Shown here piece after piece: positions 4,079 to 30,974 of a DNA stretch of 32,000 nt (position 1 is its first letter; each line of letters begins with the position of its first letter). The stretch comes from Nostoc sp. PCC 7120 = FACHB-418. GTDB taxonomy: Bacteria; Cyanobacteriota; Cyanobacteriia; Cyanobacteriales; Nostocaceae. The notes under the pieces were generated by a model that searched no databases, was not told the DNA's origin, and saw only the letters and a list, made by a program, of their open reading frames with translations. A program made the position numbers and the translations under genes. The stretch spans positions 4,050,001-4,082,000 of the forward strand of contig NC_003272.1 in NCBI RefSeq assembly GCF_000009705.1, in the 5' to 3' direction.

Positions 4079-5218
4079 GTGGTCTTATTGAAAGGCTTTG
4101 AAATCGAAATGTACACCGGTACGCCTCAAGGTGAAATCGTCGGCCTCTCGGATAAAATTGTGACTCAATTAGACGGGTTTGTACGAGAACCAGATAGCCG
4201 GAACGTAGAATACACAACAGATCCACTACACAGTTATGAGAATTTGCTGTGTGCTTTGTTGCGACCTAGACGCGCATTAAGAGACTACCTCAAGCAATTA
4301 GGTGACTATACCCTCATTCCTGGCAGTACGTTATCTTTGGGTAGAAGCGATCGCTTTTTTCGTTCCGACCCAGCCAACCCATATCATGACTATATTGAGC
4401 AAACTTACGGCACAAAAGTAGTTACCGCTAGTGTTCATATAAACGTAGGCATTGACGATCCAGAAGTATTAATGCGGGCTTGTCGATTAATTCGCGTCGA
4501 AGCACCCCTATTTTTAGCCTTAAGCGCCTCATCTCCCTTCATCGATGGTAAAGCCACAGGTTATCACTCCACCCGTTGGGGTGTCTTCCCCCAAACCCCA
4601 ACCAACGTCCCACTATTTACCAGCCACGCCCATCATATAGAGTGGGTAGAACAGCAATTGGCTATCGGGACAATGCAAAACGTCCGCCACCTGTGGGTAT
4701 CAGTCAGACCAAATGGCGATCGCCGTCCCTATGATTTGAACCGTCTAGAATTAAGAATCTGTGATTTAGTTACAGATCCCATCTCCTTACTGGCAATTAC
4801 AGCCTTACTAGAAGCGCGGCTATTACAACTAATAGAAAATCCCGACCTAGATCCCTTAACCCAAAGTAAGTTTTCTCCCGAAGAACTTGTAACCCTCACC
4901 GCCAAAAACGAAGCAGCAGCCGCTAGCGCTAGTCTCGATGCCCAACTGACACATTGGCAAGACGGTAGAAGCATCATAGCTAGAGATTGGGTGAATGAAA
5001 TATATCAAGAAGTTTGGGCGATCGCTAAAAAACATGGCTTTAGCTGTTTCCTCTCTCCCCTCCAGAAAATTTTACGTGAAGGTAACGAAGCCCAACACTG
5101 GTTACAGCTACATAAAGTCGGCTTTGACACCCAATGCGTCATCACCCAAGCCATAAGTACCACCCAGGAACGAGAACTTGAACTACAAAATAAGTTGTGT
5201 ACCCAGCTAAAGGGGTAA
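4079..5218 (+). CDS. gshA: Glutamate--cysteine ligase (cyanobacterial type)
   Basis: 379-aa ORF with a GTG start. The N-terminus MVLLKGFEIEMYTGTPQGEIVG and the overall sequence match my recollection of cyanobacterial GshA. Its position next to trmL and the M23 peptidase matches the Anabaena arrangement as I remember it. Confidence 0.8.
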   Translation: MVLLKGFEIEMYTGTPQGEIVGLSDKIVTQLDGFVREPDSRNVEYTTDPLHSYENLLCALLRPRRALRDYLKQLGDYTLIPGSTLSLGRSDRFFRSDPANPYHDYIEQTYGTKVVTASVHINVGIDDPEVLMRACRLIRVEAPLFLALSASSPFIDGKATGYHSTRWGVFPQTPTNVPLFTSHAHHIEWVEQQLAIGTMQNVRHLWVSVRPNGDRRPYDLNRLELRICDLVTDPISLLAITALLEARLLQLIENPDLDPLTQSKFSPEELVTLTAKNEAAAASASLDAQLTHWQDGRSIIARDWVNEIYQEVWAIAKKHGFSCFLSPLQKILREGNEAQHWLQLHKVGFDTQCVITQAISTTQERELELQNKLCTQLKG

Positions 5219-13766: not shown

Positions 13767-13786
13767 AGACGCGATTAATCGCGTCT
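13767..13786. repeat. Perfect 20-nt palindrome AGACGCGATTAATCGCGTCT (dispersed Nostocales hairpin repeat, possible terminator)
   Basis: Read directly, 20 nt after the methyltransferase stop. There is no T-tract, so a terminator role is uncertain. Confidence 0.6.
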
Positions 13787-24662: not shown

Positions 24663-27014
24663 CTAACCATTTTCTAAACGCGTCATTGTTATTTGCACTT
24701 TTTCCACTTGCTTTGGTGCAGGCATATCATTGAAAATAACGATCGCCTGATGAAATGTTTCTCTACTCTGGTTAACCTCACCCATTCTTTGATATGTTAA
24801 ACCTAACTGGTAGTAGGCTTTGGCGAGATTGCATTTATCAGATACCTTGTTCATGTTGGCGATCGCTTCTAAATGTTTATCTATCGCCACTGTAAACTGT
24901 CCCTGTTCTCGATATAATGATGCTAAACAAGATGTAGCCCTCGCTTCCAAAAAACTGAACTGATTTTGACGACAATGGTTAATAGCTTGATGGCACATCG
25001 AGAAAGCCTTGTCTATTAAACCTAAATTTTTATAAGTCAAGCTGAGAAATAGTAAGCTAGTGCCTATACCCCAGGAAGTTAATCTGTCGTGAGATAATCC
25101 CTCTTCCGCTTCTCGTAACATCAACTCTACGTTTTCATTATTGCCCACAGAGGAATCTAAATAAGCTAAACAACACAGAGAATAAACAACATATTGATAA
25201 TAATTTCTGTCTGTTGCCCCTAGATTCTTGACGTAGTAAAAAATCTCACTTGCTCGCTCAATTTCCCATAAATCTGTGTAACAAAGACCTAAATTGAAAC
25301 TACTGGAAATTCTCTCTTGCAGAAAGTTATTTTTTTCAGCAATCTCATTAGATTTATAGTGGCATTCCAGAGCTAATTTGATATTGCCTATTTGGTGATA
25401 AGCTCGCCCCAATAGATTATACAGAATATTCAAATGATAGTCGGAATGTAAATTATGAATGAGGGGATTAATCACAGAAATTAAGGTTTCCAACAAACCC
25501 AATCGATTAAATAAAACCCCCAAAGATATACTGTGATCCCACTTTTTGGGTCTACTACGAATAATCACATCAGCAGCTTTTTCATAATCCCCAATTTCCA
25601 TATAGTGATGATAAGCTTCCAACGCCATCAAAGCATCTTGAGGGTTTTCCACTTGAGTAACACTCTGATTCCAAAATTCTGCTGCTTTGTGGTTAGCAAT
25701 TTGCCATTCACCACTTTGTTTTAATCTGGCGATCGCCTCTGTACAAATCACCGGATGTAACCAATATTTTCCTTTACGAAACTCTATCAATAAACGGTCT
25801 GTCAGATATCTAATTACTCGCCTAGCTTGTTGTTCTGGCACATCCCAAAGTAAACATTGTAATCCCTGAACACTCACATGAGTAACATCTTGATAGCGAT
25901 AACATCCCAAACGACAAAGCAGCCGATATGCTTCACTATCCATTTGTGCCAAACGGTCAAATTGACTAGCAACTAAATTTTTTAATTCTGGTTCAATTAA
26001 TAAATCATGCTTATTTTCTCGCCAATAAATATCTGCATTGCCTTCAAAATCTGTAGTAATTGCACCACTAATAATTTGCATAGATTTGGCATTTCCACCA
26101 AAAGCTTTACACATTTCACTTAGTGCAGGTGAATTAGATTTAATTTGACAACTAGTAAAAAACTTTTGCCAAGTACACTCATCTAAACCCCCCAGGGGAT
26201 AGAAAGTCACATCTACATCTGATTCATACAGACGCTCACGACTAGTAATCAAAGTGATAGATTTAATACTAGGGTCTGCTAATACCCGCAACAGTTCTAC
26301 ATAGGAACGACGAGAAGCAATAATCTGACCATTTCTATCCAAAGCAGACTCAAGATTATCAATTAAAACCCCTATTTTGCGCGTTTCATCCCGCAGCTTG
26401 CGCCGTAGCCTATCTAGATTAATACCAAACTCTTTACCCGGTTCCTCATTAAAATCAACCCTCAGCCATTCCTCAACCACACTCTCCACAGAAACGATAT
26501 GTTGGCTTTCCTTAGCCATCCACAACTCTAGGAAATCAAAACCTTGAGCCTTAAAATACCGCCGAGCTAAGGTAGTTTTGCCAACACCACCTTCACCTTG
26601 GATGAGGATAATTTTCGCGCCTCGGACAACATAGCTATCAAGTTCGGCTATTTCGCGATCGCGCCCCACAAAGTTATAATCCAGTTCTTGTGGCTTGCCA
26701 TTATTGAGGACTGGATTTACAATAGGCGACATCTTTTGTAGTCTATGAGATTGCCAAAATCTCTGCACCACTGAAGAAAAGTTTGACTTCGAGACTTTTT
26801 CCCCCAAAACGTTCGTCAGTGTTTGCCACAATTGTGCGCCAACTGCTTTTAAATGCGCTTCCGTATAACCACAAATATCAGCAATATTCTGATAAGTTTG
26901 TTTTCTATCCTCCCATAAATTACGTAGAATTATTCTTTGAGTTGTGCCTAAACGTTCCCCTGTTTTTCTATAAACCAAACTATCCAAAAGCTCTAGAGCT
27001 TCTTCTGCACCCAT
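24663..27014 (-). CDS. STAND ATPase: N-terminal HTH-like module, NB-ARC (AP-ATPase) NTPase, C-terminal TPR array
   Basis: 783 aa. The P-loop GEGGVGKTTLA lies at 26571-26597. Walker B is GVLIDNLE and the RNBS-B-like motif ITLITSRE. GGNAKSMQII is in the GLPL position and YWLHPVI in the MHD position. From about aa 455 there are multiple TPR-like repeats (AYHHYMEIGDYEKA, LGRAYHQIGNIKLALECH, LASLYREQGQFTVAIDKH, LGLTYQRMGEVNQSRETF). The N-terminal 85 aa (LGTTQRIILRNLWEDRKQTYQNIADICGYTEAHLKAVGAQLWQTLTNVLGEKVSKSNF) match a module I recall at the N-termini of many cyanobacterial STAND/WD40/TPR proteins. Confidence 0.9.
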   Translation of the reverse strand: MGAEEALELLDSLVYRKTGERLGTTQRIILRNLWEDRKQTYQNIADICGYTEAHLKAVGAQLWQTLTNVLGEKVSKSNFSSVVQRFWQSHRLQKMSPIVNPVLNNGKPQELDYNFVGRDREIAELDSYVVRGAKIILIQGEGGVGKTTLARRYFKAQGFDFLELWMAKESQHIVSVESVVEEWLRVDFNEEPGKEFGINLDRLRRKLRDETRKIGVLIDNLESALDRNGQIIASRRSYVELLRVLADPSIKSITLITSRERLYESDVDVTFYPLGGLDECTWQKFFTSCQIKSNSPALSEMCKAFGGNAKSMQIISGAITTDFEGNADIYWRENKHDLLIEPELKNLVASQFDRLAQMDSEAYRLLCRLGCYRYQDVTHVSVQGLQCLLWDVPEQQARRVIRYLTDRLLIEFRKGKYWLHPVICTEAIARLKQSGEWQIANHKAAEFWNQSVTQVENPQDALMALEAYHHYMEIGDYEKAADVIIRSRPKKWDHSISLGVLFNRLGLLETLISVINPLIHNLHSDYHLNILYNLLGRAYHQIGNIKLALECHYKSNEIAEKNNFLQERISSSFNLGLCYTDLWEIERASEIFYYVKNLGATDRNYYQYVVYSLCCLAYLDSSVGNNENVELMLREAEEGLSHDRLTSWGIGTSLLFLSLTYKNLGLIDKAFSMCHQAINHCRQNQFSFLEARATSCLASLYREQGQFTVAIDKHLEAIANMNKVSDKCNLAKAYYQLGLTYQRMGEVNQSRETFHQAIVIFNDMPAPKQVEKVQITMTRLENG

Positions 27015-27405
27015 CTATCGCCTGACTGTATCATTTGTGCTTAATTATAACCATATTTTCACGATTTCACTTTTGGCCACAATACTACAAACTACTTTTT
27101 CCTACCCAGTAGGAAATGAGATGTCTTACTTTATCCAACTGCAAATTCTTTGAGACTGTATTACTCTTGTAATCAATACAGGCAAAGTTAAGTTAATTGT
27201 CAGGAGATACACGGTTGAGGAGAGATGTTAGTGATCAAGCTGATACTTCTGGCGTACTCATTAACACATATAACTAAGTAAGTCTTCATTCCCAGAGAAG
27301 ATTTATCTCAGTAGGTTCCTATAGATAAGCGGTAAGCATTAACTAACTAGATTCTGTAGAGCGTGTAAATACTTATGTTCCTCTCCACCCTACAGGAGTT
27401 CCATC

Positions 27406-27633
27406 ATGTTGAAGAATGAAGATACCCTACTAGTTCGTTTAGTTGCTAAGTTCTTGAAATACTTTTTGTTGATGCTTTTTGGAGTGGCGATCGCTTACGT
27501 GCTTTCCACAGCGTTAGGTGCGTTACACATCATCGAGATACTGGTTGCAGTATTGCAAACCGTGTTTATGCCCTTGGGAGTTATCCTCTTGTGCTTAATC
27601 ACAATCATGGTCATTTTCGAGTCTGTTCGTTAG
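27406..27633 (+). CDS. 75-aa small membrane protein (two predicted TM helices)
   Basis: ATG preceded by AGGAG with a 7-nt spacer. The sequence is FLKYFLLMLFGVAIAYVLSTALGAL ... ILVAVLQTVFMPLGVILLCLITIMVIF. It is followed 12 nt later by a perfect hairpin and is divergent from the STAND gene. Confidence 0.6.
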   Translation: MLKNEDTLLVRLVAKFLKYFLLMLFGVAIAYVLSTALGALHIIEILVAVLQTVFMPLGVILLCLITIMVIFESVR

Positions 27634-27644
27634 TCCAAATCAAA

Positions 27645-27668
27645 AGAGTGCAAAAATTTTTGCACTCT
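27645..27668. terminator. Perfect 24-nt palindrome, candidate bidirectional terminator
   Basis: AGAGTGCAAAAATTTTTGCACTCT. On the minus strand it is followed by TTTTGATTTGG; on the plus strand the tail is weaker (CAAATTCTTCC). It sits between the convergent 75-aa and 35-aa ORFs. Confidence 0.65.
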
Positions 27669-27751
27669 CAAATTCTTCCTTGTCAACTATTTACCCGATT
27701 CAACACTCATGAACGGGCGTATTTCTCAATGCTTCCCTCTAACCACGGGTT

Positions 27752-27859
27752 TTACTTCTTCCAAGGTAATTTAGTACCCATTTCCGTCCATGCAGAAAAA
27801 ACAAGATAGATGATAAGAAAGCCTACACCAGCAAAAAAGGCTAATAATTCGTGATTCAT
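27752..27859 (-). CDS. Candidate 35-aa hydrophobic mini-protein
   Basis: Hand translation from ATG at 27859-27857 gives MNHELLAFFAGVGFLIIYLVFSAWTEMGTKLPWKK then TAA at 27754-27752. It has one TM helix and a basic C-terminus. There is no obvious SD. It is below the ORF-track cutoff and overlaps a plus-strand track ORF (27591..27809) that I consider spurious. Confidence 0.35.
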   Translation of the reverse strand: MNHELLAFFAGVGFLIIYLVFSAWTEMGTKLPWKK

Positions 27860-27966: not shown

Positions 27967-27992
27967 AACAAAAAAGTCCGCCTTAGCGGACT
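27967..27992 (-). terminator. Rho-independent terminator on the minus strand with no upstream ORF
   Basis: The minus strand reads AGTCCGC-taag-GCGGACT followed by TTTTTTGTTG (plus-strand stem 27975-27992, A-tract 27967-27975). Confidence 0.7.
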
Positions 27993-28977
27993 AGCGTAGA
28001 AGGGTCAAATGATCGAAATTGACTATGAGATTTTTAAATCCCTTCTTTATTGTTAGCAATTTAGTCTGGAAAATCAAGCATTGTAATGCAATACTTTAGA
28101 CATAAATCCTGTAATTATGTCTTTTGATATATACTTTCTGCATAGCTTATATCATGGAATAAATATTTCCTGATTTTTGTCAATACCCACAGGAAGTATT
28201 TATACTGGCAGATTATTTATTATTTATACTTTTTATAACACAAACTAGAAATCTTATCTCAATATTGCCCAAATTATTGTTATCCAATATCCACGGATTT
28301 CCGATCAATGCAAGGCAAAATATGGGCTTACTAGTTAATTCTTGCGCCCATAGGTATTGTGGCATAACAGAGCGCTGCAAACATTTAACGGACATTAATC
28401 ACCGTAAGATTGATGCTGTTTTCAGCAGACATAAGCCAAAATTTTCAAAAATATAGTCGAGGAAATATCTCTTTAGAAAGTTGAATAATCAAAGATATCG
28501 CAGTTAATATTCTCAATATAGAAAATACTTGTTCTTACAAAATATTGCCCCATCCCAGCTAGCTTACGACGCTTTTCTAGAGGTGTGAGTAAACAAACTG
28601 GAAGCAATTCAAGACATCTTTTTCGTAGAAACTATTGACTATAATGGCGATCGCCAGTAAAGTGTTAAGCAAATGTAAATCAGTCAGCCTAATCTTAATT
28701 GCCCCAAACATTGAGGCAATTAAAGAGCGGAGGAACCAAAAATGGGGCGTATTTTGGATTATCCAAAAAGGATATCTCTCAGTCCTAGCCCGTCAGCTAA
28801 CTTCGTCGGCATTGAGAGGAGATTGAACGTACAGATTTTTATATAATGTCTGTCGTCAGTGTCCTTGGCTGGTAGCTTTACGCTTCGTTTTACCTGCCCT
28901 CGACTAGAGGGATGGATACTTATGTCCTAAATTCTGGTGTCTGAGGAAGAAGTAGTTACCTTGAGGTGAAGCTCACT

Positions 28978-30255
28978 ATGTTCCAAAATAAAAAACATCG
29001 GATCGCACTTATTTCTGTTTCTGGAGATCCAGCCGTTGAAATAGGTCAAGAAGAAGCCGGTGGTCAGAACGTATATGTTCGAGAAGTAGGCTATGCACTA
29101 GCCGAACAAGGTTGGCAAGTTGATATGTTCACTCGCCGTATCAGTCCCGACCAGGCCGAGATTGTCCAACATAGTCCTAATTGCCGCACTATCCGCTTAC
29201 AAGCGGGGCCGGTTGAATTTATCGGACGTGATCACGTATTTGATTATTTACCGGAATTTGTTGCCGAATTCCAACGCTTCCAAAAGCGCCAAGGTTATAA
29301 CTATCAACTCATTCACACAAATTACTGGTTGTCATCTTGGGTGGGAATGCAACTGAAAAAGCAACAACCCTTGGTGTTGGTGCATACATACCACTCATTA
29401 GGAGCAATCAAATATCAAACGATCGCAGATATACCCGCCATTGCGAATCAGCGATTAGCTATAGAAAAAGCTTGTTTAGAGAGTGTAGACACAGTAGTTG
29501 CCACCAGCCCCCAAGAACAGCAACATATGCGCGCCCTGGTTTCTAAGAAGGGACGCATAGAGATGATTCCTTGCGGGACTGACATTAATAACTTCGGAAA
29601 CATTGAAAAGTCGGCTGCACGGGAAAAACTGGGAATTGAGCCTGATGCCAAGATGGTATTTTATGTAGGTCGTTTTGATCCCCGTAAAGGCATAGAAACC
29701 TTAGTCAGAGCGGTTGCTCAGTCTAGGTTGAGAGGTGAAGCAAACCTCCAGTTAGTAATTGGTGGTGGTAGCCGTCCTGGTCAAAGTGATGGCAGAGAGC
29801 GCGATCGCATTGCGAATATTGTGGCTGAACTAGAACTGAACGATTGCACCACCTTCGCTGGTCGCCTAGATCATGAAATCCTCCCTTACTACTACGCTGC
29901 GGCTGATGTTTGCGTTGTCCCCAGTCACTACGAACCCTTTGGTTTAGTTGCTATTGAAGCGATGGCTAGCAAAACTCCCGTAATCGCCAGTAATGTAGGT
30001 GGATTGCAATTTACAGTAGTTCCAGAAGTCACAGGTTTACTTGCACCTCCACAAGATGAGTCAGCTTTTGCTACAGCCATAGACCGCATATTAGCCAACC
30101 CAACTTGGCGAGATCAGCTAGGCACAGCCGCCCGCCAGCGAGTGGAAACCACCTTCAGCTGGGCCGGTGTAGCATCCCAATTGAGTCAGCTATACACTCA
30201 TCTGTTAACTCAAAATGCGCCAGAAAAGAAGGAAAAAGAGGCTGTTGCAGCGTAG
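28978..30255 (+). CDS. GT4-family (GT-B fold) glycosyltransferase, MshA-like / minimal sucrose-phosphate-synthase-like
   Basis: The ORF is open from GTG 28966; the ATG is at 28978. It contains RIALISVSGDP...EEAGGQNVYVREVG..LA..GW.VDMFTR and a C-terminal E-x7-E region (PSHYEPFGLVAIEAMASKTPVIAS). I cannot tell the donor or acceptor from the sequence. Confidence 0.88.
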   Translation: MFQNKKHRIALISVSGDPAVEIGQEEAGGQNVYVREVGYALAEQGWQVDMFTRRISPDQAEIVQHSPNCRTIRLQAGPVEFIGRDHVFDYLPEFVAEFQRFQKRQGYNYQLIHTNYWLSSWVGMQLKKQQPLVLVHTYHSLGAIKYQTIADIPAIANQRLAIEKACLESVDTVVATSPQEQQHMRALVSKKGRIEMIPCGTDINNFGNIEKSAAREKLGIEPDAKMVFYVGRFDPRKGIETLVRAVAQSRLRGEANLQLVIGGGSRPGQSDGRERDRIANIVAELELNDCTTFAGRLDHEILPYYYAAADVCVVPSHYEPFGLVAIEAMASKTPVIASNVGGLQFTVVPEVTGLLAPPQDESAFATAIDRILANPTWRDQLGTAARQRVETTFSWAGVASQLSQLYTHLLTQNAPEKKEKEAVAA

Positions 30256-30572: not shown

Positions 30573-30974
30573 TCATCCGTGATGCGGGTCATTTATGTAC
30601 TCTAAGACTTTCTGGGTGCTAACTTTCCCTGTAGTGTCAAACATATACGAATGTGTCCACAAACTAGGTAATCTCATTAACTCTGGAAACTCTTGTCGCA
30701 AATATCTTGATGACCTACCCTTAAATGCTTTAACTATTTGAGATATTGAATGATGCGGGTCATATTCAACCAATAAATGAATATGGTCAGGGGCAATTTC
30801 TAGTGCTTTGATAATCCATCTTTTATCATTAGCAACTGACTGAAATATCTCAATACATCGTAATTTTAATTTTTCATTATTAGCAAAAACCCTCCTACGT
30901 CTACATGGTATCCAAACTAAATGAACAGTAGCCAATCCGATTGCGTGGTTGTAGTGATTATATACAGATTTCAT
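30573..30974 (-). CDS. tnpA: IS200/IS605-family Y1 (HUH) transposase TnpA
   Basis: 133 aa. It has VHLVWIPCRRRRVF, the HUH motif PDHIHLLVE and the catalytic-Tyr region LWTHSYMFDTTG. The size is typical. Confidence 0.92.
   Translation of the reverse strand: MKSVYNHYNHAIGLATVHLVWIPCRRRRVFANNEKLKLRCIEIFQSVANDKRWIIKALEIAPDHIHLLVEYDPHHSISQIVKAFKGRSSRYLRQEFPELMRLPSLWTHSYMFDTTGKVSTQKVLEYINDPHHG

What the first reader, a model, noticed from the sequence alone, without database searches (positions are those of the whole stretch)
24663..27859. Effector-less HTH/NB-ARC/TPR STAND ATPase divergently paired with a two-TM mini-protein that converges on a 35-aa hydrophobic peptide
Seen in the sequence:
- The 783-aa protein has an intact NB-ARC NTPase (P-loop, Walker B, and GLPL-like and MHD-like positions) and a long TPR sensor array.
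- It has no enzymatic effector domain. Its only extra part is an approximately 85-aa HTH-like N-terminal module.
- 391 nt upstream, on the opposite strand, is a 75-aa two-TM ORF with a good SD.
- That ORF ends at a perfect 24-nt palindrome shared with a convergent 35-aa single-TM ORF.

Established knowledge: STAND NTPases with TPR or WD40 sensors act as ligand-triggered switches, both in transcription control (MalT/AfsR type) and in antiphage/conflict systems (Avs type).

Inference: the ATPase may be a ligand-activated transcription switch whose output is the adjacent small membrane protein (holin- or toxin-like), with the convergent mini-peptide or its antisense overlap acting as a modulator. 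That would be a two- or three-gene conflict or stress module that has not been characterised.

This is an architecture-based hypothesis only. Such STAND genes are numerous in Nostocales and most stand alone.
Basis: partly seen in the sequence, partly recalled or inferred. Interest (0 to 1): 0.7.

Follow-up and report, generated by a model that had tools for sequence, protein, structure and literature searches.

The report
STAND regulator paired with membrane micro-protein
A switch-like regulatory ATPase of filamentous cyanobacteria is almost always encoded back-to-back with a tiny two-helix membrane protein across a very conserved control region, which marks an unstudied signalling module that can be tested directly in the model strain Anabaena PCC 7120.

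Summary
The window is Nostoc/Anabaena PCC 7120. All features described exist at the stated coordinates.

- **The regulator.** The 783-aa protein has a confidently modelled N-terminal DNA-binding-type HTH, an intact STAND NTPase and a TPR array. It is therefore not effector-less. The architecture is that of a GutR/MalT/AfsR-class transcription switch.
- **Synteny.** It is a chromosomal gene, apparently inherited vertically (49-89% identity across Nostocales, Leptolyngbyales and Oscillatoriales). In 45 of 48 orthologous loci with enough upstream DNA, a homologue of the 75-aa two-TM protein lies divergently upstream. Other neighbours are not conserved.
- **A missed third gene.** Most genomes have a Cys-rich, single-TM protein between the two genes. 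The PCC 7120 lineage lost it in a deletion of about 290 nt that fused its start codon onto the two-TM ORF.
- **Control region.** The shared region of about 390 nt has blocks at least 90% identical. It carries phased 14-nt direct repeats next to the regulator's candidate promoter.
- **Sister modules.** Paralogues of the two-TM protein pair with LuxR-HTH/NB-ARC/WD40 STANDs.
- **The 35-aa ORF** is a real coding gene but is found in only four genomes, so it is not part of the module.
- **The palindrome** looks like an ordinary terminator hairpin.
- **Defence role.** No evidence supports one.

Verdict: the two-gene pairing is real, and function is inferred from architecture and synteny only.

The parts
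24663..27014 (-). all3367-type gene (BAB75066.1), 783 aa. HTH-STAND NTPase-TPR regulator.
   Evidence: ORF. Exact database match. Orthologues at 47-89% identity, all about 780 aa. Full-length AF2 model has pLDDT 78. Best Foldseek match is 6mfv, the PH0952 STAND-TPR protein, E 6.5e-10.
26745..27014 (-). N-terminal HTH output domain (residues 1-90)
   Evidence: AF2 model with pLDDT 94 and 5 helices. Foldseek top hits are ECF sigma region 4, Lrp/AsnC HTH, KorA and GerE, with probability up to 1.0 but E 0.3-1. PF26355 is precomputed for all orthologues. Mean pairwise identity 52%.
25695..26675 (-). STAND NTPase core plus helical and winged-helix domains (residues 114-440), preceded by a disordered linker (residues 91-113)
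   Evidence: Invariant P-loop, Walker B D219, TSR259, GGN308 and YWLH420. AAA_16, ATPase_2 and NB-ARC hits are weak. Mean pairwise identity 64-68%.
24666..25694 (-). TPR sensor solenoid (residues 441-783)
   Evidence: TPR_12, TPR_1, TPR_2 and TPR_8 score above their cut-offs. pLDDT is mostly above 90. Mean pairwise identity 48-51% across orders.
27015..27405 (.). Shared divergent control region, with blocks at least 90% identical in 34 Nostocales loci
   Evidence: Alignment. No convincing conserved RNA fold (consensus -8.3 kcal/mol). No Rfam family.
27044..27049 (-). Candidate -10 box TATAAT of the regulator gene, 29 nt before its ATG
   Evidence: Read from the sequence. Nearly invariant in the alignment. 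Not mapped experimentally.
27092..27105 (-). Direct repeat copy GTAGGAAAAAGTAG (position -91)
   Evidence: In 34 loci there are 87 matches against 1.9 expected, at fixed positions about -116, -90 and -61, all in one orientation.
27126..27139 (-). Direct repeat copy GTTGGATAAAGTAA (position -125). The proximal third copy is degenerate in this strain.
27156..27199 (.). Conserved block of about 40 nt containing inverted arms TGTATT..N12..AATACA
27338..27366 (+). Conserved 29-nt block ATTAACTAACTAGATTCTGTAGAGCGTGT, about 40-70 nt upstream of the small-protein start. Candidate promoter or leader of the divergent operon.
   Evidence: CTGTAG in this block could pair with CTACAG next to the SD, but both are invariant, so covariation gives no test.
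27406..27633 (+). asr3368 (BAB75067.1), a 75-aa two-TM hairpin protein ending -ESVR. Its first 2-3 codons come from the deleted Cys-rich gene.
   Evidence: 243 clusters in the family, with the domain always C-terminal. Deletion junction at about 27413-27415. The 'MLK[NH]EDT' allele occurs only in the PCC 7120/ATCC 29413 clade.
27645..27668 (.). 24-nt perfect palindrome. Terminator-like hairpin between the convergent ORFs, with a T-run only on the minus strand.
27752..27859 (-). Unannotated 35-aa single-TM ORF. A real gene, but a lineage-restricted neighbour and not part of the conserved module.
   Evidence: The ORF is conserved with silent changes while the flanks cannot be aligned. Found only in L001, L003 and L005. 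The exact sequence is absent from the protein collection.

Best explanation
**What it is.** All3367 is a STAND-class transcription factor of the GutR/MalT/AfsR kind.
- The N-terminal sigma4/LuxR-like HTH is the output.
- The P-loop NTPase is the switch.
- The TPR solenoid is the sensor.

**How it is arranged.** The gene is an apparently vertically inherited chromosomal gene of filamentous cyanobacteria. It is locked in a divergent arrangement with an operon of small membrane proteins. Ancestrally that operon encoded a Cys-rich (zinc-ribbon-like) single-TM protein followed by the two-TM protein Asr3368. In the PCC 7120/ATCC 29413 lineage a deletion of about 290 nt removed the first gene and fused its start codon in frame to asr3368.

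**Proposed mechanism (inferred).**
1. An unknown and evolutionarily stable signal relieves TPR autoinhibition.
2. ATP binding drives oligomerisation.
3. The clustered HTHs occupy the phased 14-nt direct repeats in the shared control region.
4. This controls transcription of the divergent membrane-protein operon and of the regulator itself.

The small membrane proteins are the dedicated regulon and may feed back on the switch.

**Shown:** domain architecture, fold, synteny, the deletion, the conserved repeats.

**Inferred:** DNA binding to those repeats, the direction of regulation, the signal, and what the membrane proteins do.
For: **Architecture and fold**
- establish the HTH, NTPase and TPR domains.
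- PF26355 is precomputed for the orthologues, and UniRef names the protein as carrying a vWA-MoxR associated N-terminal HTH domain.

**Synteny**
- A two-TM homologue is present, divergent and within 0.1-0.9 kb, in 45 of 48 orthologous loci with upstream DNA.
- It is present in 0 of 29 paralogous loci.
- Every other window neighbour is syntenic in at most 1-2 loci.
- Identity of the two proteins co-varies across loci (Spearman 0.53, p 3e-4).

**Independent recurrence**
- Two-TM paralogues sit divergently from GerE/LuxR-HTH + NB-ARC + WD40 STANDs.
- Those STANDs are only 21-25% identical to All3367 in the NTPase domain.
- What the partners share is the N-terminal HTH plus the NTPase, not the sensor.

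**Control region**
- Blocks are at least 90% identical although the proteins are only 55-60% identical.
- 14-nt direct repeats lie at about -116, -90 and -61, with 87 matches against 1.9 expected.
- The proximal copy sits where a -35 element would lie for the conserved TATAAT.

**After the deletion**
- asr3368 stayed intact at 93% identity between PCC 7120 and ATCC 29413.

**Precedent**
[quoted passage not shown] AfsR combines a DNA-binding domain with a NOD and TPR (PMC10936776).
Against: - No transcription, binding or phenotype data exist for all3367 or asr3368. The only literature hit is a list of clade signature proteins.
- The repeats could belong to another factor.
- The proximal repeat is degenerate in PCC 7120 and its closest relatives.
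- Foldseek E-values for the HTH are weak (0.3-1), although the top hits are predominantly HTH DNA-binding domains.
- The local Pfam copy lacks PF26355, so that assignment rests on precomputed annotation.
- One two-TM paralogue has no STAND within 5 kb (Nostoc sp. C052). Crinalium, Stigonema and an Oscillatoria locus lack the small gene.
- Remote family members sit on short contigs in varied contexts.
Confidence: 0.55

Rival explanations
1. The small membrane proteins are the input, not the output. They anchor or sequester the STAND regulator at the membrane in the manner of an anti-sigma factor, or they present cytosolic tails to its sensor. The signal is then transmembrane, and the real target genes lie elsewhere.
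For: - The Cys-rich partner has a cytosolic Cys/His cluster, one TM and a short outer tail. That is the general layout of membrane anti-sigma factors.
- The best structural match of the HTH is sigma-L region 4 in complex with the anti-sigma factor RslA (3hug).
- The two-TM protein has invariant cytosolic ends: R11, K18-Y19-F20, and the C-terminal E72-S73-x-R75. TPR and WD40 domains are peptide binders.
Against: - The partners' sensors differ (TPR or WD40) while the small protein's conserved ends stay the same.
- The PCC 7120 lineage lost the Cys-rich gene yet kept the regulator and the two-TM gene.
- The Cys pattern is not the ZAS HxxxCxxC motif.
- No interaction data exist.
Confidence: 0.2
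2. This is an antiphage or programmed-cell-death module. The STAND senses an invader protein and induces a small membrane-damaging, holin-like protein that kills or arrests the infected cell of the filament.
For: - STAND NTPases with TPR or WD40 sensors are common in conflict systems of multicellular bacteria. HTH domains are listed among their effector modules (PMC7159879).
- Small TM proteins are frequent defence effectors (established knowledge).
- Distribution appears limited to filamentous cyanobacteria.
- The small-residue pattern in TM1 (G26, A28, S34, G38) would suit oligomerisation.
Against: - No significant PADLOC match apart from a generic TPR model.
- The sensor is conserved at 48-51% mean identity across orders rather than diversifying.
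- Identity falls off in step with taxonomic distance, as expected for vertical descent.
- No relatives in IMG/VR contigs and no orthologue on plasmids.
- The flanking genes examined carry no recognisable defence domains, the only nuclease-type neighbour being Uma2.
Confidence: 0.15
3. There is no functional link. The two genes stay adjacent only because they share an indivisible, densely packed promoter region, and each has an unrelated function.
For: Divergent pairs with overlapping regulatory DNA are hard to separate. No experimental link exists.
Against: - Paralogous two-TM genes pair independently with different HTH-STAND lineages.
- The pair survives while all other synteny is lost.
Confidence: 0.07

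Closest known systems
GutR of Bacillus subtilis (glucitol-responsive STAND activator)
   Same: As I recall it, GutR has an N-terminal HTH, a P-loop NTPase and a C-terminal TPR region, and it is encoded divergently from its target operon. Activation by sequential binding of inducer and ATP is cited in PMC10936776.
   Different: - Sequence relationship was not tested here, because no GutR sequence or model was available.
- GutR's target is a catabolic operon, not small membrane proteins.
- GutR's ligand is a sugar alcohol. The ligand here is unknown.
MalT of E. coli
   Same: A STAND transcription activator whose oligomer binds several repeated boxes (established knowledge). MalT (8bob) appears among the fold matches.
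   Different: - MalT's LuxR HTH is C-terminal (established knowledge).
- The TPR_MalT model scores 30.2 bits against a cut-off of 45.
AfsR / large SARP regulators of Streptomyces
   Same: An N-terminal DNA-binding domain plus NOD plus TPR. They bind direct repeats that overlap the -35 region (PMC10936776, PMC11301090).
   Different: - No OmpR-type winged helix or BTAD is present.
- The NCBIfam AfsR model scores 26.9 bits against a cut-off of 1430, and only over TPR repeats.
PH0952, archaeal STAND with a TPR sensor (PDB 6mfv)
   Same: Best full-length structural match, E 6.5e-10.
   Different: TM-score is only 0.41-0.48 and sequence identity 15%.
HTH-bearing STAND 'conflict systems' of multicellular bacteria (Kaur et al. 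2020, PMC7159879) and the vWA-MoxR-associated N-terminal HTH domain (PF26355)
   Same: The same N-terminal domain family by precomputed annotation, and the same host range of multicellular bacteria.
   Different: - No vWA or MoxR partner lies among the genes flanking it in the window.
- The sensor is conserved and the gene is chromosomal.
- I found no mention of a small two-TM partner in the passages of that paper that I searched.

Membership tests
STAND NTPase superfamily | P-loop (Walker A) and Walker B | tested here: met
   GEGGVGKTT (G142, G143, G145, K146, T147) and hhhhD219 are invariant in 22 orthologues.
STAND NTPase superfamily | Sensor-I arginine, GxP-like helical-domain motif and conserved His in the winged helix (the MHD position) | tested here: met
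   T257-S258-R259, G307-N308 (GGNAK, with P replaced) and Y417-W418-L419-H420 are invariant. Strands at 411-418 form the winged helix in the model.
STAND NTPase superfamily | C-terminal repeat sensor and overall fold | tested here: met
   TPR hits pass their cut-offs. Top Foldseek hit is 6mfv, a STAND-TPR protein, E 6.5e-10.
NB-ARC (Pfam PF00931) | Score at or above the Pfam gathering threshold | tested here: not met
   17.3 bits against a cut-off of 23.5, covering residues 132-212 only. Some orthologues carry a precomputed PF00931 hit.
Helix-turn-helix DNA-binding domain (PF26355, sigma4/LuxR-like) | Tri-helical HTH fold | tested here: met
   AF2 pLDDT 94. The top 50 Foldseek matches are almost all HTH DNA-binding domains, with probability up to 1.0 but E 0.3-1. 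PF26355 is precomputed. The local Pfam copy gave no hit.
Helix-turn-helix DNA-binding domain (PF26355, sigma4/LuxR-like) | Sequence-specific DNA binding | not testable with these tools
   Candidate sites only: phased repeats at 27092-27105 and 27126-27139.
MalT family | C-terminal LuxR/GerE HTH and MalT-type sensor | tested here: not met
   The HTH is N-terminal. TPR_MalT scores 30.2 bits against a cut-off of 45.
AfsR/SARP family | OmpR-type winged HTH plus BTAD at the N-terminus | tested here: not met
   No Trans_reg_C or BTAD hit. NF053617 scores 26.9 bits against 1430.
GutR family | N-terminal HTH, NTPase and TPR, with a divergent target operon | tested here: met
   Architecture and divergent arrangement match. 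This is a match of architecture only.
GutR family | Sequence homology to B. subtilis GutR | not tested
   No GutR sequence or profile was available in the tools used.
Avs-type or other catalogued antiphage STAND systems | Match to a defence-system model, or an enzymatic or TM effector fused to the NTPase | tested here: not met
   In PADLOC only a generic TPR model (E 1.6e-6) and P-loop-only hits at E of 1e-3 or weaker. The N-terminal domain is an HTH.
Zinc-binding (ZAS) anti-sigma factors, considered for the Cys-rich partner that is absent from this window | HxxxCxxC motif in a cytosolic domain followed by a TM | tested here: not met
   The invariant pattern is C6-x3-C10-x4-C15PF ... VC29xKC32G. 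Pfam gives only a weak Zn_Ribbon_TF hit at E 0.022.
Any described family for the 75-aa two-TM protein | Hit in Pfam, NCBIfam or PADLOC | tested here: not met
   No hits. Its homologues carry no Pfam annotation and are named 'hypothetical' or 'uncharacterized', apart from one UniRef label of DUF3098.

The most novel reading that the evidence does not exclude
Filamentous cyanobacteria carry a family of NLR-like STAND transcription switches with either TPR or WD40 sensors. Each is hard-wired to its own two-TM micro-protein as executioner or messenger. This would be a transcription-coupled analogue of NLR-to-pore-former pathways, used for controlled membrane permeabilisation, cell sacrifice or cell-to-cell signalling within the filament. 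The Cys-rich single-TM protein would act as a redox- or metal-sensitive gatekeeper.
Probability: 0.2. Interest if true: 0.8.

Novelty: new variant of a known kind. Interest (0 to 1): 0.55.

Why it matters
STAND transcription factors are known from only a few cases (MalT, GutR, AfsR). Most cyanobacterial STAND genes are assumed to be orphan or immune genes.

This case has several features that make it tractable:
- The regulator is conserved and apparently inherited vertically.
- It has a dedicated, equally conserved micro-protein partner.
- Candidate operator repeats have been identified.
- A parallel WD40-sensor version exists.
- PCC 7120, a genetically tractable model, carries a naturally minimised two-gene form. 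Nostoc punctiforme-type strains carry the three-gene form.

Together these give a direct route to learning what signal a bacterial NLR-like switch reads in a multicellular prokaryote, and what a widespread but unannotated family of two-TM micro-proteins does.

Tried and rejected
1. **Structured RNA or riboswitch in the conserved intergenic region.** RNAalifold gives a consensus energy of only -8.3 kcal/mol, and 3 of 31 pairs show compensatory change. Rfam finds nothing there. Rejected as unsupported. One invariant CTGTAG/CTACAG pairing next to the SD cannot be judged.
2. **The 35-aa peptide as a module member.** Rejected, since it is present in only 3 of 79 related loci.
3. **The palindrome as a conserved shared element.** Rejected, since hairpins at the same place in other genomes are not homologous.
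4. **A remnant of the Cys-rich gene in the window.** tblastn finds none, and the nucleotide alignment shows a clean deletion.
5. **Transcriptome or proteome evidence in papers.** There is no mention of all3367 or asr3368 beyond one signature-protein table. The supplements I could reach had nothing, and the Anabaena dRNA-seq paper is not held.
6. **Context of remote two-TM family members.** The contigs are too short or the contexts too varied to be informative.
7. **Sequence link between the N-terminal HTH and the GerE HTH of the WD40-type partners.** hhalign aligns the HTH cores in register, but the match is not significant.
8. **Sequence search of solved structures.** Only TPR repeats and a weak P-loop match to PH0952 were found.
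9. **Viral contigs and plasmids.** No relatives in viral contigs and no orthologue on plasmids.

Full report
**Origin and observation**

Exact protein matches place the window in Nostoc/Anabaena sp. PCC 7120. The 783-aa protein is BAB75066.1, the 75-aa protein is BAB75067.1 (asr3368), and BAB75069.1 is alr3370.

- 783 aa at 24663..27014 (-).
- 75 aa at 27406..27633 (+), with GGAG 7 nt before the ATG.
- A 391-nt gap between these two.
- A 35-aa ORF from the ATG at 27859 to the stop codon at 27752-27754 (-).

The 24-nt perfect palindrome lies at 27645-27668. It is the longest in the window and is longer than any in 50 shuffles. It sits between the convergent ORFs, 11 nt after one stop codon and 83 nt after the other.

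**The large protein**

- Pfam gives solid TPR hits. It gives only sub-threshold NTPase hits: AAA_16 at 32.2 against 32.6 bits, and NB-ARC at 17.3 against 23.5 bits.
- An alignment of 22 orthologues shows the P-loop, Walker B aspartate, TSR, GGN and YWLH motifs to be invariant.
- The full-length AlphaFold model has pLDDT 78. It best matches the archaeal STAND-TPR protein PH0952 (6mfv, E 6.5e-10), and MalT (8bob) also appears.
- 'STAND NTPase with TPR sensor' is therefore secure, while 'NB-ARC' in the strict Pfam sense is not.

The N-terminal 90 residues fold with pLDDT 94 into five helices. The nearest solved structures are predominantly HTH DNA-binding domains: ECF sigma region 4, Lrp/AsnC, KorA and GerE. 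E-values are weak at 0.3-1, although probabilities reach 1.0. Precomputed Pfam annotation lists PF26355 for the orthologues, and UniRef names the protein as carrying a vWA-MoxR associated N-terminal HTH domain. The protein is therefore not effector-less. The HTH is its output, as in the STAND regulators MalT, GutR and AfsR (PMC10936776).

**Conservation**

- Full-length relatives of about 780 aa occur in Nostocales, Leptolyngbyales, Oscillatoriales and relatives, at 47-89% identity.
- Identity falls off in step with taxonomic distance.
- Mean pairwise identity by domain is 52% for the HTH, 16% for the linker, 68% for the NTPase, 64% for the winged-helix region and 48-51% for the TPR.
- A sensor this conserved across orders argues for a stable ligand rather than an arms race.
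- PADLOC gives nothing beyond a generic TPR model.
- No relative exists in IMG/VR viral contigs, and no orthologue lies on a PLSDB plasmid.

**The synteny test**

I fetched 79 genomic loci carrying relatives and searched them with the window's proteins.

- The two-TM protein was found in 45 loci, always upstream and on the opposite strand.
- Those 45 are among the 48 orthologue-like loci (at least 49% identity) that have upstream DNA. None of the 29 paralogue-like loci has it.
- Other window neighbours are syntenic in at most one or two loci.
- In Leptolyngbyales-type loci the partner is 141-152 aa, with a Q-rich coiled-coil N-terminus and the same two-TM C-terminus.
- A profile search finds 243 clusters of this family. 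They are 52-196 aa long, with the two-TM domain at or within a few residues of the C-terminus in nearly all.
- In the loci aligned here the protein ends ES[LVW][RK] in all but one. Invariant residues are R11, K18-Y19-F20, G26, A28, Y31, S34, G38, L61, C63-L64, E72-S73 and R75.
- No database has a model for the family.

**A third gene, lost in this strain**

Clustering all ORFs in the loci revealed a second conserved small gene in 36 loci. It lies between the regulator and the two-TM gene, on the latter's strand. It encodes an 80-103-aa protein (most 82-92 aa) with these parts:
- An invariant Cys pattern, C6-x3-C10-x4-C15PF...NRxVC29xKC32G.
- One TM segment.
- A Q/P/S-rich tail.

The gene is restricted to Nostocales and is annotated as hypothetical throughout.

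Nucleotide alignment of the window with its closest relatives shows a clean deletion of about 290 nt. It joins this gene's ATGTTGAA start in frame to codon 4 of the two-TM gene. The resulting 'MLK[NH]EDT' N-terminus is shared by PCC 7120, A. variabilis ATCC 29413, Anabaena CCY 9910 and N. parmelioides. All other sequences examined begin 'MTTN...' or 'MNTH...'. The window's 391-nt gap is therefore the ancestral gap between the regulator and the Cys-rich gene. PCC 7120 carries a naturally minimised two-gene version.

**Control region**

- Across 34 Nostocales loci the intergenic region of about 370-390 nt contains long blocks at least 90% identical. The flanking proteins are only 55-60% identical over the same range.
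- It includes a nearly invariant TATAAT 29 nt before the regulator's ATG.
- It includes up to three same-orientation copies of a 14-nt element, GTnGGAwrAAGTAn, at about -116, -90 and -61. There are 87 matches against 1.9 in shuffles.
- The proximal copy lies where a -35 element would be. In the window two copies remain, at 27126-27139 and 27092-27105, and the proximal one is degenerate.
- RNAalifold gives no convincing conserved structure, and Rfam finds nothing.
- Phased direct repeats next to a promoter are what an oligomerising STAND activator would be expected to bind. That is an inference.

**Independent recurrence**

More distant two-TM homologues give further support.
- In Nostoc commune NIES-4072, a Calothrix and a Scytonema, they sit divergently from GerE/LuxR-HTH + NB-ARC + WD40 STAND proteins of about 1180 aa. 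Two of these cases have a 127-129-aa CxxC ORF in between.
- These STANDs are only 21-25% identical to All3367 in the NTPase domain.
- One paralogue, in Nostoc C052, has no STAND nearby.
- The Calothrix intergenic region has six TGTCA[CG] copies against 0.33 expected.

What the partners share is the N-terminal HTH and the NTPase, not the sensor type. That favours the small protein as the regulated output over a sensor-specific ligand.

**The 35-aa ORF and the palindrome**

- The peptide is a real gene. In three other Nostocaceae genomes the ORF is conserved with many silent changes, while the flanks cannot be aligned.
- It is absent from the other 76 loci. Its exact sequence is not in the protein collection. 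It is a lineage-restricted neighbour.
- Each of those loci has a strong hairpin between the convergent genes, but the sequences are not homologous.
- In the window the T-run follows the stem only on the minus strand.
- The palindrome therefore looks like an ordinary terminator hairpin.

**Interpretation**

- Best explanation (0.55): a GutR/MalT-like STAND transcription switch whose dedicated regulon is the divergent small-membrane-protein operon, probably with autoregulation.
- Rival (0.2): the membrane proteins act as anchor or input, in the manner of an anti-sigma factor.
- Rival (0.15): a transcription-coupled abortive-infection or cell-death device.
- Rival (0.07): no functional link.

No experimental data bear on any of these. 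Searches for the locus tags found only a signature-protein list.

**Novelty**

- The class (STAND regulators) and the N-terminal domain family are known.
- I found no description of the conserved pairing with an unannotated two-TM micro-protein family, of the Cys-rich third gene and its deletion in the model strain, of the conserved repeat-bearing control region, or of the parallel WD40 version.
- I rate this as a new variant of a known kind and of moderate interest.

Noticed in passing
window 28677-28825 (+), upstream of 28966-30255 (+): A c-di-AMP riboswitch (RF00379, 74.8 bits, E 8e-16) lies about 140 nt upstream of alr3370. That gene encodes a GT4 glycosyltransferase whose best NCBIfam matches (MshA-like, sucrose-phosphate-synthase-like) are all below their cut-offs. 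It may be a c-di-AMP-controlled sugar or osmolyte glycosyltransferase.
   Followed up: partly
window 27752-27859 (-): An unannotated 35-aa single-TM ORF, MNHELLAFFAGVGFLIIYLVFSAWTEMGTKLPWKK. It is conserved as coding sequence in three other Nostocaceae genomes and absent from the protein collection.
   Followed up: yes
window 27975-27992 (-); L001 and L003 just upstream of the 35-aa ORF: A GC-rich hairpin with a T-run (AGTCCGCTAAGGCGGACT TTTTT) lies 115 nt upstream of the 35-aa ORF's ATG in the window. In L001 and L003 it lies only about 15 nt upstream. The peptide may therefore be expressed by read-through, or the hairpin may be part of its leader.
   Followed up: no
L001 5278-5526 (-) and 35 other loci; absent from the window: A conserved Cys-rich single-TM protein of 80-103 aa (most 82-92 aa) with no Pfam family lies between the regulator and the two-TM gene. 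It is restricted to Nostocales.
   Followed up: yes
L080 about 4920-4975; L085 about 4900-4950: In the WD40-type sister modules a strong intrinsic terminator (CAACAGGGTTGAC...GTCAACCCTGTT plus a T-run) sits about 25 nt upstream of the two-TM paralogue's SD, after a 127-129-aa CxxC ORF. This suggests control by read-through or antitermination.
   Followed up: no
L082 4513-5000: The intergenic region between a GerE-NB-ARC-WD40 STAND and its two-TM partner has six TGTCA[CG] copies against 0.33 expected.
   Followed up: partly
window 30573-30974 (-): An IS200/IS605-family transposase (NF033573, E 3e-37).
   Followed up: no
window 13767-13786: The second-longest perfect palindrome in the window, 20 nt.
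   Followed up: no
L006, L007, L010, L015, L021, L025-L027, L042, L056: immediately downstream of the regulator: A Uma2-family putative restriction endonuclease gene (PF05685, E 1e-21) follows the regulator on the same strand in about 10 loci. It is absent from the window. This gene family is, as I recall, abundant in cyanobacteria, so the link is probably incidental.
   Followed up: partly
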